A stretch of DNA of 64,000 bases, from the IMG/VR virus record IMGVR_UViG_3300024346_000005; one strand, given 5' to 3'. Origin of the DNA: a virus. Taxonomy: Duplodnaviria > Caudoviricetes. The notes beneath the pieces were generated by a model. That model did no database searches, had not been told where the DNA came from, and was given only the letters and a program-made list of their open reading frames with translations. Position numbers and translations under genes: made by a program. The stretch's first letter is position 1; every line of letters starts with the position of its first letter. Positions 16,603 to 50,890 of the stretch are shown in pieces.

Positions 16603-16675
16603 GGGCGGATAATTTAATTGGTCAAAATGCTCTGCTTATAACGGAGTTATGAGGGATCATGGCCCTCTCTGCCTA
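16603..16675 (+). tRNA. tRNA-Ile(UAU)
   Basis: Acceptor GGGCGGA/TCTGCCT, anticodon stem CTCTG/CGGAG, loop CTTATAA, T-stem GAGGG/CCCTC; no encoded CCA. Confidence 0.8.
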
Positions 16676-16718: not shown

Positions 16719-16800
16719 GCCCCCTTGGCGTAATTGGTAGCCGCTACGGATTTAAAATCCGTTGACTTTAGTCGTGCCGGATCGTACCCGGCAGGGGGTA
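16719..16800 (+). tRNA. tRNA-Leu(UAA)
   Basis: Acceptor GCCCCCT/AGGGGGT, anticodon stem ACGGA/TCCGT, loop TTTAAAA, long variable arm, T-stem GCCGG/CCGGC. Confidence 0.9.
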
Positions 16801-16832: not shown

Positions 16833-17141
16833 ATGTCTTTCAAGTATAAAATAAGTCAGTCATACTGTTGGTATAATAACGGAAGTATGATTGTGAAAAT
16901 GTACTTCATCAACGAGATTCCATTTACCTTCGATGAATTACCTGACGGGCACTTATACGACCAAGACCTCTGTAGAACGGCAGATAAGTATCGTGCATAT
17001 GAACCAGATGATTTATTTAAGAACTCATTCTATCTTATAGACGAGGAAGCACACCCATTACTTTTTGATATGGACCTAGAAAACCCCCAAGACCTTCCAG
17101 ATGAAGGTTATGAGTTTTTGCGGCAGGACTTATCTTCATAA
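16833..17141 (+). CDS. Hypothetical protein
   Basis: ORF behind ATAAATA late promoter. Confidence 0.7.
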   Translation: MSFKYKISQSYCWYNNGSMIVKMYFINEIPFTFDELPDGHLYDQDLCRTADKYRAYEPDDLFKNSFYLIDEEAHPLLFDMDLENPQDLPDEGYEFLRQDLSS

Positions 17142-17235
17142 ATAATGGTGCTTATTCGTGGTTGTTTAGGCAAAGATTAAGGGGCAGAAATGCTCCTTTT
17201 CTTGTATAAATAAGTATAACCACGAATAAAGTAGA
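17138..17235 (+). ncRNA. Putative antisense small-RNA module controlling the downstream endonuclease (copy 1)
   Basis: ATAAATA, antisense arm 17149-17165, terminator 17181-17200, TATAAATA 17205-17212, target leader to 17233. Confidence 0.65.
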
Positions 17236-17781
17236 ATGAATAATTATTACACTTATGCATATTTGCGTGAAGATGGAACACCATATTATATCGGTAAAGG
17301 TAAAGCAGGTAGAATTAATAATACCTTACACACTATTCATCTTCCAGTAAAAGAAGAAAGAAGAATATTCTTAAAGAAAAATCTTACCGATGAAGAAGCA
17401 AGGAAGCACGAGATTTATATGATTGCTGTTTTAGGTAGAAAAGATTTAGGAACAGGAATTTTAAGAAATATGACCGATGGTGGGGAAGGTTGTGCCGGTC
17501 GTGTTTTAAGTGAAGAAACAAAAAAGAAGTTGAGTGATAGTCATAAAGGAAGAAAGAAAAGTGAGGCACACCGAAAAGCATTAAGTGAGGCGGCGAAGAA
17601 AAGAAAAGCAAGTGAAGAAACAAGAGAAAAAATGAGTAAAGTTTTTATGGGAGAAAATAATCCGTCTTTTGGGAAAAAGTGGTGGAATAATGGTGTAGAA
17701 AATAAACTCTGTAAAGAATGTCCCGGTGAAGAATATGTTTTAGGATTTCTGAACAAGTATTGGATGAATAAACATAAATAA
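17236..17781 (+). CDS. GIY-YIG homing endonuclease with NUMOD3 repeats
   Basis: [20 protein letters not shown]...R...E...LRNMTDGGEG. Confidence 0.9.
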   Translation: MNNYYTYAYLREDGTPYYIGKGKAGRINNTLHTIHLPVKEERRIFLKKNLTDEEARKHEIYMIAVLGRKDLGTGILRNMTDGGEGCAGRVLSEETKKKLSDSHKGRKKSEAHRKALSEAAKKRKASEETREKMSKVFMGENNPSFGKKWWNNGVENKLCKECPGEEYVLGFLNKYWMNKHK

Positions 17782-32511: not shown

Positions 32512-32826
32512 GTGATGAGATTTAGATTATTTGATTGGTTTCTCAAAGATTATGAGATGCCTGACAAGTACAAACTTATCGTTTCTGATGAGCACGATAA
32601 TGAGTATTGTCTTGTAGGACTTTGTTCTTCTCTTGCCAAGCACGTTGCTATACTTGAAGAACGCATTACTACTCTGGAACAAAAGTATGAAGGTGCTCTT
32701 ATAGACATTAAGCGTCTTGAAGAAGAGAATGTAGAGACTACAAATTGTCTGTATGAAAATGCCAACTCTATAGATGCAGTTGATGCCCGTATAGATATTC
32801 TTGCCGAACATTATATGAATAAATAG
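32512..32826 (+). CDS. Hypothetical coiled-coil protein
   Basis: ORF track. Confidence 0.7.
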   Translation: MMRFRLFDWFLKDYEMPDKYKLIVSDEHDNEYCLVGLCSSLAKHVAILEERITTLEQKYEGALIDIKRLEEENVETTNCLYENANSIDAVDARIDILAEHYMNK

Positions 32827-32912
32827 TGATGCTTATTTGTGGTTATTTAAGCAGAATGGGGGCAGAAATGCTCCTTTCCTTGTATAAATAACTATAACCA
32901 CAAGTAAAGCAG
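32819..32912 (+). ncRNA. Putative antisense small-RNA module (copy 2)
   Basis: ATAAATA, antisense arm 32830-32846, GGGGC-AGAAAT-GCTCC terminator, TATAAATA 32883, target 32894-32911. Confidence 0.65.
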
Positions 32913-33513
32913 ATGGAATATTATACTTACGCTTATTTGCGTGAAGACGGCACACCTTATTATATTGGAAGGGGAAAGCATCAAAAAAAAATCAAAATAT
33001 AGAAGAATGAACACTAAATTTGGTCATAGTGTTTCTGTTCCAAATGAAAAAAGAAGAATTATACTAAAAGATAATCTTTCTCTTAACGATGCTAATAAAC
33101 ACGAAATTTATATGATTTTCATTTTCGGTAAAAAATATGACGGAACAGGTATATTGAGAAATCTTGTAGATGGTGGAACTGGTGGAGGTGTTGCTGGTAG
33201 AAAATTAAGTGAAGAAACAAAAAATAAAATAGGAAATGCAAATAGAGGTAAAACTCGTTCAGAAGAACATAGAAGAAAAAATGGTGAAGCAAAAAAAGGT
33301 AACACTAATTGGTTAGGTAAAACTCATTCAGAAGAAACTAAAGAAAAAATAAGAAATGTCCATAAAGGAAAACCATTTCCAGGAACTCATAATAATAATA
33401 AAGAAACAAAATGGTGGAATGATGGACAAATTAACAAAAGAAGTGTAGAATGTCCTGGTAAAGAATGGAAATCTGGAAGATTACCATTAAAACCCTATAA
33501 AAAGAGAAAATAA
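32913..33513 (+). pseudogene. GIY-YIG homing endonuclease split by a +1 frameshift in an A9 run
   Basis: ATG 32913 gives [26 protein letters not shown] then stop at 33000; rest continues in the +1 frame after A9 (32983-32991). Confidence 0.85.
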
Positions 33514-46218: not shown

Positions 46219-46377
46219 TGAAAATTGATATTACAATAGAAGATTATGGTATAATTATAAATGCTCTACACTATTATAAGAAAGTAGAGAAGAAAGGAAA
46301 CTTTCAGCAGTATGATGACGAAAGAATTAATTCCTTGAGAGACAAACTCTCGCACCAAATTATATGGAACAAAATGA

Positions 46378-46485
46378 ATAAATAATGATGCTCTAATGTG
46401 TTCGCATCCATAAGAGTGGGAAGGGTGTCTTCGGGCACCTTTTCTTGTATAAATAGTATTGCGAACACAATTTAGAAGCAGAACT
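46378..46485 (+). ncRNA. Putative antisense small-RNA module (copy 3)
   Basis: ATAAATA, antisense arm 46389-46406, GGTGTC-TTCG-GGCACC terminator, TATAAATA 46448, target 46460-46480. Confidence 0.65.
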
Positions 46486-47181
46486 ATGGTAAATCCTAAT
46501 AGGTTTTATACTTACGCATATTTGCGTGAAGATAAGACACCTTATTATATTGGTAAAGGTAAAGGTAATAGGGCATATAAAAAGCATCGAAAAGGAATAG
46601 GTGTCCCAAAAGATAAATCGAGAATTATATTCCTCAAACAAAACTTAACCGAAGAAGAAGCATTTAGACACGAAATCTATATGATTGCTGTTTTTGGTAG
46701 GAAAGATTTGAGAACTGGTATTCTTCACAACCTTACAGATGGTGGTGATGGTGCTTCTGGATGGGTTCCAAGTGAAGAAACTAAAAGAAAACAAAGTGAA
46801 GTGAAAAAAGGTAATACTTATATGTTAGGTAAAACTCTTTCAGAAGAAACCAAAAGAAAAATGAGTGATACGCGAAAAGGTAAAACTCATTCAGAAGAAA
46901 CGAAAAGAAAACAAAGTGAGGTAAAGAAGGGTAAAACTTATTCGGAAGAAGCAAAAAGAAAAATGAGTGAGGCACATAAAGGTAAAACTCTTTCAGAAGA
47001 AACCAGAAGAAAAATGAGTGAGATACGAAAAGGTAAAACTCATTCAGAAGAAACTAAAAGAAAACAAAGTGAGGTAAAGAAGGGTAAAACTAAAGGTAAA
47101 AAGTGGTGGAATGATGGTTGTGGAAATTGTAAAAGGATGGTAGAATGTCCCGGTGATGGTTGGAGACTTGGAAGAAAATGA
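46486..47181 (+). CDS. GIY-YIG homing endonuclease with tandem NUMOD3 repeats (ATG 46486 preferred)
   Basis: [20 protein letters not shown]; about six SEET.RK.SE..KGKT units. Confidence 0.92.
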
Positions 47182-50776: not shown

Positions 50777-50833
50777 TCAGTATAAATAAAAATGCTTATG
50801 TGTGTCGTAACCAGAAGCAACGAGTAGCATAAG

Positions 50834-50890
50834 GACACTTTCCAAACAGGCACAAGGGCACTTTACAGGTGCCTTTTTTTGATGTATGAT
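50834..50890 (+). promoter_or_regulatory. Promoter cassette with embedded terminator
   Basis: GACACTT-N4-AACAGGCACA, GGCAC/GTGCC-T7, TATGAT. Confidence 0.75.

What the first reader, a model, noticed from the sequence alone, without database searches (positions are those of the whole stretch)
17138..17238. Candidate new system: late-promoter small RNA antisense to the leader of a phage GIY-YIG nuclease (type I toxin-antitoxin-like module)
Seen: in front of three GIY-YIG genes (17236, 32913, 46486) the same order recurs. It is ATAAATA, then a segment starting TG(G/A)TGCT, then a GC hairpin with T-run (here GGGGC-AGAAAT-GCTCC-TTTT, 17181-17200), then CTTG-TATAAATA (17205-17212), a short leader and ATG. 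The segment after the first promoter (TGCTTATTCGTGGTTGT, 17149-17165) is complementary to the leader after the second promoter (ATAACCACGAATAAAGTA, up to 17233). The duplex is ~17 bp with G-U pairs and one bulged A, ending 2 nt before the ATG. Established: T4 I-TevI and gene e use cis hairpins that mask the RBS on long early transcripts and are bypassed by an internal late promoter. Inference: here the masking strand has its own late promoter and terminator. It would be made as a separate ~50-55-nt RNA at the same time as the nuclease mRNA and could cap nuclease translation in trans, or in cis on read-through transcripts. That is a self-contained RNA-antidote/nuclease module travelling with a selfish gene.
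Basis: partly seen in the sequence, partly recalled or inferred. Interest (0 to 1): 0.85.

Follow-up and report, generated by a model that had tools for sequence, protein, structure and literature searches.

The report
Control leader of cyanophage homing-nuclease cassettes
A conserved ~100-base RNA control module sits in front of selfish nuclease genes in this cyanobacterial virus; its main part works like a switch already known from phage T4, and it may also make a small regulatory RNA, which is not shown.

Summary
Each of three homing-endonuclease genes (ATG 17236, 32913, 46486) is preceded by: NATAAATA, 4 nt, a 5' arm, a short local hairpin (H1), a GC hairpin with a U-run, an invariant TATAAATA, then a 3' arm ending 1-5 nt before the AUG.

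The same module occurs in 47 distinct leaders from viral metagenomes and in two isolates (6 copies in Synechococcus phage S-SRM01, 2 in B3). The long-range helix and the terminator stem covary strongly: 92% of cells paired against 73% in shuffles.

The core is the known T4-type arrangement (I-TevI, segB, Aeh1 mobE). Read-through RNA is terminated or has its translation start masked, and an internal late promoter bypasses the mask. Dassa et al. 2009 reported such hairpins, with TATAAATA inside, for metagenomic (ocean-survey) endonuclease genes. It is therefore not a new system.

Two features go beyond that:
- The upstream [A/C]TAAATA is invariant at fixed spacing and matches this phage group's late-promoter signature.
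- H1 covaries three ways and would display the arm in its loop.

Both fit a separate ~50-nt RNA. No transcript end data exist, so I put trans regulation at about 0.3. The type I toxin-antitoxin label is not supported.

The parts
17137..17144 (+). P1 of copy 1: CATAAATA, a late-promoter-like motif overlapping the upstream ORF's TAA stop (17139-17141). The predicted start is G17150.
   Evidence: TAAATA is invariant at N4 spacing in 47 of 47 family members. [A/C]TAAATA is 7-10-fold depleted on the antisense strand.
17149..17166 (+). 5' arm of copy 1. It pairs with the leader at 17215-17234.
   Evidence: Duplex energy is -20.1 kcal/mol, and the pairs covary.
17149..17172 (+). Local hairpin H1 of copy 1 (UGCUUA..UAGGCA). 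It is mutually exclusive with the long-range helix and puts the arm core in its loop.
   Evidence: The base of the stem switches from GCUU/AAGC to CCUG/CAGG in S-SRM01 and B3 copies.
17173..17203 (+). Intrinsic-terminator-like hairpin (core 17179-17198) with a U-run, copy 1.
   Evidence: All six stem pairs covary.
17205..17212 (+). P2 of copy 1: TATAAATA, the internal late promoter. The predicted start is A17218.
   Evidence: TATAAATA is invariant in the family, except that the B3 copy uses AATAAATA.
17215..17234 (+). 3' arm, which is the leader and translation-initiation region of the nuclease mRNA, copy 1.
   Evidence: The leader alone is unstructured (0 kcal/mol).
17236..17781 (+). Homing endonuclease gene 1 (181 aa), with NUMOD3 repeats and a GIY-YIG-like N-terminus.
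32818..32912 (+). Module copy 2: P1 32818-32825, 5' arm 32830-32847, terminator about 32854-32878, P2 32883-32890, 3' arm 32893-32912.
   Evidence: (102 bits).
32913..33513 (+). Endonuclease gene 2. It is frameshifted at the A9 run 32983-32991: frame 1 stops at 33000-33002, and the rest reads in the frame of ORF 32941-33513.
46377..46481 (+). Module copy 3: P1 46377-46384, 5' arm 46389-46407, terminator about 46418-46445, P2 46448-46455, 3' arm 46459-46481.
   Evidence: (69 bits).
46486..47181 (+). Endonuclease gene 3 (231 aa from ATG 46486), with four NUMOD3 repeats.
50781..50882 (+). Decayed module. It keeps TATAAATA-AAAA-UGCUUAUGUGUGUCG.. (P1 plus the arm), joined to the last ~15 nt of a nuclease ORF and the next gene's promoter/terminator hairpin. 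P2, the leader and the nuclease are gone.
   Evidence: Its arm is identical to that of the intact cassette in L097.

Best explanation
This is the portable 5' expression-control module of free-standing homing-endonuclease cassettes in T4-like cyanophages (Kyanoviridae).

What it contains:
- An intrinsic terminator lies directly behind the upstream gene.
- A 15-19-bp long-range helix pairs a segment just after that gene's stop with the ~20 nt directly before the nuclease AUG.
- An invariant TATAAATA late promoter sits between the two arms. Its predicted start falls 3-4 nt inside the 3' arm.

How it most likely works:
- RNA arriving from upstream is mostly terminated.
- RNA that reads through the terminator has its translation start masked by the helix.
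- Only RNA started at the internal late promoter lacks the 5' arm and has an open leader. The nuclease is therefore made only late in infection and at a limited level.

What is shown and what is inferred:
- Shown here: the elements, their order, their conservation, and covariation of the helices.
- Inferred from the T4 I-TevI / segB / Aeh1 mobE precedent: termination, masking and late-only translation.

A further layer: the upstream [A/C]TAAATA and the local hairpin H1 are conserved additions. The upstream motif probably fires as a late promoter. Whether the resulting ~50-nt RNA does anything in trans remains open.
For: - Sequence and folds of the three copies.
- 47 distinct homologous leaders share the same order.
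- Covariation: 92.2% of cells paired against 73.2% in shuffles; 159 double-change cells against 49; 0 of 500 shuffles as high; slid controls 37-57% (RNAalifold).
- A clean compensatory flip separates two paralogues of this genome: GUG/CAC in copy 3 against GAG/CUC in the cassette just past the window end.
- The leader alone is unstructured.
- The same module precedes several nuclease types, including an EndoVII/HNH-type gene in S-SRM01, so it is a regulatory cassette and not a by-product of one gene.
- Terminator-like by an independent scan.
- Literature: the mechanism is established for T4 I-TevI/II/III, segB and Aeh1 mobE (PMC2988022, PMC3014915). Equivalent hairpins with TATAAATA were reported for GOS endonuclease genes (PMC2677866).
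Against: - There is no transcript-end or translation data for this phage or its relatives.
- There is no clear Shine-Dalgarno sequence in the masked stretch, so 'masking' refers to the initiation region in general.
- The cis model alone does not need the invariant upstream TAAATA at fixed spacing, nor hairpin H1.
- In the divergent relatives L020 and L030 the minimum-energy fold does not form the long-range helix.
Confidence: 0.8

Rival explanations
1. This is the first reader's model, as an added layer on the cis module. The upstream [A/C]TAAATA is an active late promoter. Transcripts start at the G of UGCUU and stop at the terminator, giving a ~50-57-nt two-hairpin RNA. The loop of H1 pairs with the 5' end of the nuclease mRNA made from the internal promoter. 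This caps nuclease translation in trans, for example by buffering against rising genome copy number. It would be a same-strand antisense RNA, comparable in layout to c4 RNA of phages P1 and P7.
For: - TAAATA sits at N4 spacing in 47 of 47 leaders collected without requiring it, also where the upstream stop lies before the motif. The base before it is A (34) or C (13), never G or T.
- ATAAATA and CTAAATA are the two variants strongly depleted on the antisense strand: 7 against 75 expected and 7 against 47 expected in S-SRM01. 65 of 90 sense-strand ATAAATA lie 8-60 nt before an ORF start.
- The B3 cassette uses AATAAATA as its internal promoter.
- In a cassette-free allele the same CATAAATAA lies just upstream of the tail-fibre gene.
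- The predicted start coincides with the first stem base of H1, which covaries three ways.
- Net trans binding is -9.5, -11.8 and -14.6 kcal/mol for cognate pairs, and copy 3 is orthogonal to copies 1 and 2.
- Weak hint: two different metatranscriptome contigs begin exactly at 17150.
Against: - No RNA ends could be measured, and contigs cannot prove a start.
- 28% of members have CTAAATA, which departs from the reported NATAAATA consensus.
- The divergent relatives L020 and L030 have no upstream motif.
- No trans-acting small RNA has been characterised in T4-type phages (PMC3014915).
- The short RNA could be an inert by-product.
Confidence: 0.3
2. The upstream TAAATA is kept for a DNA-level or gene-boundary reason and not to make a functional RNA. 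Possibilities are the joint at which cassettes settle (late promoters or stop codons at gene ends), a supplier of the upstream gene's stop, or a displaced backbone promoter. Any RNA from it would be a terminated by-product.
For: - The upstream ORF ends within -6 to +7 nt of the motif in 47 of 47 cases, and in 36 of 47 the stop lies inside TAAATA(A/G).
- Copies 2 and 3 share ATGAATAAATA, which supplies the last three codons (MNK) and the stop of two unrelated upstream ORFs.
- Cassette 1 is flanked by a 9-bp direct repeat, CATAAATAA, at 17137-17145 and 17773-17781. A cassette-free allele carries a single copy.
Against: - TAAATA is equally invariant in the 10 of 47 cases where the stop lies upstream of it.
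- Most cassettes have no matching TAAATA at their 3' end.
- This view does not explain the fixed 4-nt spacing to the RNA helix or hairpin H1.
Confidence: 0.3
3. The module is a type I toxin-antitoxin (addiction) module. A labile antisense RNA would hold back a stable toxin mRNA, so that loss of the element kills the cell or phage.
For: Only the formal similarity: an RNA complementary to the translation start of a potentially harmful nuclease.
Against: - The product is a 181-231-aa NUMOD3 homing endonuclease, not a small membrane peptide.
- Both RNAs would be late transcripts of a lytic phage, which leaves no room for post-segregational killing.
- The masking strand lies on the same strand, upstream, as in known cis masks.
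Confidence: 0.03

Closest known systems
T4-type translational masks of homing endonuclease genes (I-TevI, I-TevII, I-TevIII, segB; mobE of Aeromonas phage Aeh1)
   Same: An RNA helix covers the translation start on long transcripts, and a TATAAATA late promoter placed inside the structure gives late RNA that lacks the 5' arm. The genes are homing endonucleases of T4-like phages (PMC2988022, PMC3014915).
   Different: - Here the two arms are ~50 nt apart and enclose a complete intrinsic terminator.
- The 5' arm can instead form its own covarying hairpin.
- An invariant late-promoter-like motif sits 4 nt before the 5' arm.
- There is no obvious Shine-Dalgarno sequence.
- One module serves several nuclease families.
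Hairpins upstream of GIY-YIG and Vsr-like free-standing endonuclease genes in Global Ocean Sampling 'fractured gene' loci (Dassa et al. 2009, PMC2677866)
   Same: These are metagenomic (GOS) endonuclease genes from marine, estuarine and freshwater samples. [quoted passage not shown] A hairpin left behind after loss of the nuclease was also noted there. This is probably the same or a sister family.
   Different: Their sequences (figure and supplement) are not held here, so identity could not be checked. The text mentions neither a terminator, nor an upstream second promoter-like motif, nor an alternative hairpin, nor a possible separate RNA.
c4 antisense RNA of phages P1 and P7 (from my own knowledge: Citron and Schuster 1990)
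   Same: A small RNA encoded upstream on the same strand as its target pairs with the translation-initiation region of a downstream gene. This matches the layout the trans model proposes.
   Different: c4 is cut out of the operon transcript by processing and controls immunity (icd/ant). Here the RNA would have its own late promoter and terminator and would belong to a mobile nuclease cassette. Nothing has been shown experimentally.
IS200 left-end control (from my own knowledge: terminator against read-through, stem-loop hiding the ribosome site, antisense RNA art200)
   Same: A selfish element shields its own nuclease or transposase gene with a terminator against outside transcription, plus a start-masking helix and an antisense RNA.
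   Different: The element, host and promoter logic are unrelated. The IS200 antisense RNA is made from the opposite strand.
Type I toxin-antitoxin systems
   Same: An RNA complementary to the translation start of a harmful gene product.
   Different: There is no small toxic peptide, no opposite-strand or separate antitoxin gene has been shown, and a lytic phage offers no addiction logic.

Membership tests
T4-type late-promoter-bypassed translational mask of homing endonuclease genes | An RNA helix that includes the translation-initiation region of the nuclease gene | tested here: met
   The 3' arm ends 1-5 nt before the AUG. Duplexes have 15-19 bp at -18 to -24 kcal/mol in 47 of 47 leaders, and covariation is strong.
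T4-type late-promoter-bypassed translational mask of homing endonuclease genes | A late promoter (TATAAATA) placed so that late RNA lacks the 5' arm | tested here: met
   An invariant TATAAATA lies between the arms. By the usual T4 spacing the predicted start falls 3-4 nt inside the 3' arm. The start itself was not measured.
T4-type late-promoter-bypassed translational mask of homing endonuclease genes | The gene is a homing endonuclease of a T4-like phage | tested here: met
   NUMOD3 (Pfam, E 3e-15 to 8e-21), PHROG 'homing endonuclease' families, and nearest phages in Kyanoviridae.
T4-type late-promoter-bypassed translational mask of homing endonuclease genes | Long transcripts are poorly translated and late transcripts are well translated | not testable with these tools
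   This needs reporter or in vitro translation assays.
Any Rfam family | A match at the family's gathering score | tested here: not met
   Only two tRNAs were found in the whole window. The best sub-threshold hit on 17100-17280 was 22.9 bits against a cut-off of 55.
Trans-acting same-strand antisense RNA (P1/P7 c4 type) | Released as a separate small RNA | not testable with these tools
   A promoter-like motif and a terminator are present. Only contigs of RNA libraries were available, and they cannot show ends.
Trans-acting same-strand antisense RNA (P1/P7 c4 type) | Complementarity to the target's translation-initiation region that is sufficient for pairing in trans | tested here: met
   Net cofold gain is -9.5, -11.8 and -14.6 kcal/mol after paying for opening H1.
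Type I toxin-antitoxin system | The toxin is a small (usually under 60 aa) hydrophobic or otherwise cell-killing peptide | tested here: not met
   The products are 181-231-aa NUMOD3 DNA endonucleases.
Type I toxin-antitoxin system | An unstable antitoxin RNA and a stable toxin mRNA give killing on loss of the element | not testable with these tools
   No RNA stability data exist. The logic is implausible in a lytic phage, but that is an inference.
GIY-YIG nuclease superfamily (the protein) | A GIY-YIG catalytic domain recognised by profile or structure | tested here: inconclusive
   The motif Y-x-Y..YYIGKG is present. The Pfam LEM-3-like GIY-YIG match is below its cut-off (13-18 bits against 27). 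There was no PDB sequence hit. No structure was predicted.

The most novel reading that the evidence does not exclude
Homing-endonuclease cassettes of cyanomyoviruses carry their own small-RNA gene. A late promoter fixed 4 nt before the masking arm, a seed-displaying hairpin and a terminator would produce a ~50-nt same-strand antisense RNA. This RNA would pair with the 5' end of the cognate nuclease mRNA and cap its translation in trans. It would be the first functional trans-acting regulatory RNA in T4-type phages, and it would travel with a selfish gene and evolve cognate specificity between paralogous cassettes.
Probability: 0.3. Interest if true: 0.8.

Novelty: new variant of a known kind. 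Interest (0 to 1): 0.5.

Why it matters
How selfish nuclease genes keep themselves harmless inside tightly packed phage genomes is known in detail only for a few T4 and Aeh1 genes.

This work shows that the same logic is packaged as a portable, structurally conserved ~100-nt module. The module is shared by several nuclease families across many uncultured cyanophages and two isolates.

It also defines two extra conserved features, an upstream late-promoter motif and an alternative hairpin, which the classic model does not need.

If the short RNA is real and active, it would give T4-type phages their first regulatory small RNA. It would also be a compact example of dosage-buffered control of a mobile gene. 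S-SRM01 is a cultured phage with six copies, so the question can be tested directly.

Tried and rejected
- **Own genome:** no genome is held for this window. The window extension was not in IMG/VR but was found in metagenome contigs.
- **Rfam:** no family matched at gathering or relaxed thresholds.
- **Orphan RNA gene at 50781:** I tested whether this solo module could regulate another cassette. Its arm has no complement in the window and binds the three leaders only weakly. Its 3' part is the tail of a nuclease ORF plus the next gene's promoter hairpin. It is a deletion remnant.
- **Late-promoter direct repeats around every cassette:** this holds for cassette 1 only. Most 3' ends have no TAAATA.
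- **TAAATA conserved merely as the upstream stop codon:** rejected, because it is invariant also where the stop lies before it.
- **Small upstream ORF starting at the NTG before CUU:** rejected, because its length and sequence are not conserved (3 to more than 20 codons).
- **RNA evidence:** only contigs of four metatranscriptome runs could be laid. They show presence in RNA libraries, a cassette-free allele and suggestive contig starts, but no valid RNA ends.
- **PDB sequence search with the nuclease:** nothing found.
- **Gibb and Edgell 2007:** the paper is not held.
Full report
**1. The observation**

The sequence is as described. In copy 1:
- CATAAATA (17137-17144) overlaps the TAA stop of a 102-aa ORF.
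- Four bases later UGCUU opens an 18-nt arm (17149-17166).
- A GC hairpin (core 17179-17198) is followed by a U-run.
- CUUG-TATAAATA occupies 17201-17212.
- The 20 nt before the ATG at 17236 (17215-17234) are complementary to the arm: 17 pairs, one bulged A, -20.1 kcal/mol.

Copies 2 and 3 repeat the order: P1 at 32818 and 46377, P2 at 32883 and 46448, ATG at 32913 and 46486. The whole leaders fold with z-scores of -5.8, -4.1 and -5.3 against dinucleotide shuffles. The leader downstream of the second promoter is unstructured on its own. Copy 3 has an entirely different arm core that still pairs.

Additions to the observation:
- Gene 2 is frameshifted in an A9 run.
- A decayed module lies at 50781-50882.
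- One more intact cassette starts about 143 nt past the window end.

**2. The genes and the phage**

The three proteins carry 2-4 NUMOD3 repeats (Pfam, E 3e-15 to 8e-21) and match PHROG 'homing endonuclease' families. The N-terminus has the Y-x-Y...YYIGKG pattern of GIY-YIG enzymes. The Pfam match to a GIY-YIG model stays below its cut-off, and no solved structure is found by sequence. 'GIY-YIG' is therefore likely but not proven.

The nearest isolates are Synechococcus phages B3, B23 and S-SRM01 (Kyanoviridae). The gene after cassette 1 is a 1876-aa tail-fibre protein. The DNA occurs in many 'marine metagenome' runs. No whole genome is held.

**3. A large family**

- A protein-guided scan of IMG/VR gave 80 loci. 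A covariance model built from the family finds the module directly in front of the nuclease ATG in 27 of them.
- A DNA pattern that required neither the nuclease nor the first promoter motif (TGCTT...CTTGTATAAATA) gave further members.
- In all, 47 distinct leaders were collected and aligned (A2).
- The isolates S-SRM01 and B3 have 6 and 2 copies.
- The downstream genes belong to several nuclease groups, including an EndoVII/HNH-type gene in S-SRM01. The module is therefore a regulatory cassette in its own right.
- In the window the model finds only the three copies and, weakly, the remnant.

**4. The structures are under selection**

- RNAalifold predicts the long-range helix enclosing the terminator.
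- On the MAFFT alignment, which was not fitted to any structure, 92.2% of cells pair against 73.2% in shuffles. 159 cells changed on both sides against 49. Sixteen of 18 pairs have compensatory changes. No shuffle in 500 reaches any observed measure. Sliding the partner by 1-3 columns drops pairing to 37-57%.
- Copy 3 and the cassette just past the window end differ by a clean flip: GUG/CAC against GAG/CUC.

The segment from UGCUU to the U-run folds in every member into two hairpins, a short local stem H1 (UGCUU...AAGCA, 5-8 bp) and the terminator.
- H1's fifth pair covaries (A-U 18, G-C 12, U-A 5).
- In four more distant copies from S-SRM01 and B3 the otherwise invariant base changes from GCUU/AAGC to CCUG/CAGG. 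The leader changes with it from AAAGC to AGAGU, keeping the same bulged A.
- The 5' arm thus has two mutually exclusive, selected partners.

**5. The core mechanism and what is already known**

The arrangement is the one established for T4 I-TevI, I-TevII, I-TevIII and segB and for Aeh1 mobE. A helix hides the translation start on transcripts coming from upstream. A late promoter inside the structure yields RNA without the 5' arm, which restricts translation to late infection (PMC2988022; PMC3014915).

Dassa et al. 2009 (PMC2677866) reported related findings for Global Ocean Sampling (GOS) survey loci:
- 15 of 16 5' UTRs of free-standing GIY-YIG or Vsr-like endonuclease genes carry a hairpin.
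- Ten of these hairpins contain TATAAATA.
- A hairpin can remain after loss of the nuclease.

That is very probably this family or a sister of it. Their sequences are not held here, so I could not check. There is no Rfam family.

My best explanation (0.8) is therefore a double lock against outside transcription, namely a terminator plus a start mask for read-through, with late expression from the internal promoter. The elements and their selection are shown. Termination, masking and timing are inferred from the precedent.

**6. What the classic model does not explain**

*The first motif.* TAAATA lies exactly 4 nt before the arm in 47 of 47 leaders, although it was not used to collect them.
- It is equally invariant when the upstream stop lies before it (10 cases), inside it (36) or after it (1).
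- The preceding base is A (34) or C (13), never G or T.

*Genome-wide signature.*
- In S-SRM01, ATAAATA occurs 90 times on the coding strand, 65 of them 8-60 nt before an ORF start. It occurs 7 times on the other strand, where about 75 are expected.
- CTAAATA occurs 21 and 7 times, with about 47 expected on each strand.
- GTAAATA and TTAAATA are far less skewed.
- The window shows the same pattern.
- [A/C]TAAATA thus behaves as the late-promoter core of these phages, and the first motif conforms to it.
- The B3 cassette even uses AATAAATA as its internal promoter.

*Position of the predicted start.* With the usual T4 spacing (my own knowledge: last A at -6), the first promoter would start at the G of UGCUU. 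That is the first nucleotide of the arm and of H1's stem. It mirrors the second promoter, whose predicted start falls 3-4 nt inside the 3' arm.

*Shape and energetics of the predicted RNA.* The predicted 51-57-nt RNA has a 5' stem-loop that exposes the arm core, followed by a terminator. This is the usual shape of an antisense RNA. Cofolding with the late mRNA gives a net -9.5, -11.8 and -14.6 kcal/mol for cognate pairs. Copy 3 is orthogonal to copies 1 and 2.

**7. RNA data**

Only Logan contigs of four metatranscriptome runs could be laid, and contigs cannot establish RNA ends.
- Relatives of the region are present in RNA libraries.
- One contig spans from before the first promoter motif into the nuclease ORF.
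- In one run two different contigs both begin at 17150, the predicted first start. I treat that as a hint only.
- One contig joins 17145 to 17795. This is a cassette-free allele in which a single CATAAATAA precedes the tail-fibre gene.
- Cassette 1 is thus flanked by a 9-bp direct repeat (17137-17145 and 17773-17781).
- At this locus the first motif may be the backbone's own tail-fibre late promoter. That makes it likely to be active, and it equally fits a purely DNA-level origin.

**8. Weighing the additions**

I estimate that the first motif fires in late infection at roughly 0.6-0.7, because such promoters need little beyond the motif and the phage avoids the motif elsewhere. I estimate that the short RNA has a selected trans effect on nuclease translation at about 0.3.

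Points against a trans role:
- There is no measurement.
- 28% of members have CTAAATA.
- Distant relatives (L020, L030) keep the terminator and TATAAATA and an 11-13-nt complement of the leader without any upstream motif.
- T4-type phages have no characterised trans RNA (PMC3014915).

A rival of similar weight (0.3) is that the motif marks where cassettes settle or supplies the neighbour's stop. Copies 2 and 3 share ATGAATAAATA, which provides the last three codons of two unrelated ORFs. The fixed spacing and H1 are not explained by that view.

The type I toxin-antitoxin analogy is rejected (0.03). The product is a sizeable DNA endonuclease, both RNAs would be late transcripts of a lytic phage, and no addiction logic applies. 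The closer analogues for a same-strand antisense RNA are c4 of P1/P7, and IS200 for the layered shielding of a selfish gene. Both comparisons come from my own knowledge.

**9. Verdict**

- The core is a new, well-documented variant of a known kind of control element, widespread in cyanomyoviruses.
- A conserved extra layer is worth an experiment in S-SRM01.
- Interest: 0.5.

Noticed in passing
window 32913-33513: The second endonuclease gene is broken by a frameshift in a run of nine A (32983-32991). The first frame stops at 33000-33002, and the rest reads in the frame of ORF 32941-33513. Its control leader is intact (102 bits). This could be a pseudogene, an assembly error or slippage.
   Followed up: partly
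window 50781-50882: Deletion remnant of a cassette. A perfect TATAAATA, the 4-nt spacer and an arm identical to that of the intact cassette in L097 are fused to the last ~15 nt of a nuclease ORF and the next gene's promoter/terminator hairpin. Its arm has no target in the window.
   Followed up: yes
window 17137-17145 and 17773-17781: A 9-bp direct repeat, CATAAATAA, flanks cassette 1. A metatranscriptome contig (run X22) shows a cassette-free allele with a single copy in front of the tail-fibre gene, so filled and empty alleles coexist in nature.
   Followed up: partly
L218-L221, corresponding to about 64143-64250 just past the window end: A further intact cassette ([12 protein letters not shown]...). 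Its leader is a near copy of copy 3, with one compensatory flip in the long-range helix (GUG/CAC to GAG/CUC).
   Followed up: yes
whole window; S-SRM01 genome (L206-L217): ATAAATA and CTAAATA show strong strand asymmetry: 19 against 1 and 4 against 1 in the window, 90 against 7 and 21 against 7 in S-SRM01. Most sense-strand copies lie just upstream of ORF starts. GTAAATA and TTAAATA are much less skewed. This suggests that [A/C]TAAATA is the working late-promoter core.
   Followed up: yes
window 17150 (run X22): Two different contigs from an RNA library begin exactly at G17150, the start predicted for the first promoter motif. Another contig ends at 17152. Contigs cannot prove RNA ends.
   Followed up: no
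L045, L049, L050, L054, L057, L058, L060, L064, L070, L074, L076-L079 (about 100 nt before the nuclease ATG): More distant nuclease homologues carry a different conserved leader. A promoter-like motif (TATAAATA in about half of them) is followed directly by a hairpin (GUGUAG.UCGCG...CUAC) and then CUCUAA...AGGAG...CAGCAUG. This appears to be a second type of structured leader.
   Followed up: no
window 16603-16675 and 16719-16800: Two tRNA genes (Rfam 51 and 45 bits) lie just upstream of the ORF that precedes cassette 1. This is reminiscent of nuclease genes placed next to tRNA regions in T4.
   Followed up: no
L015 1399-1504 and 2619-2725: Two modules lie about 1.2 kb apart on one IMG/VR contig, which indicates tandem nuclease cassettes.
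   Followed up: no
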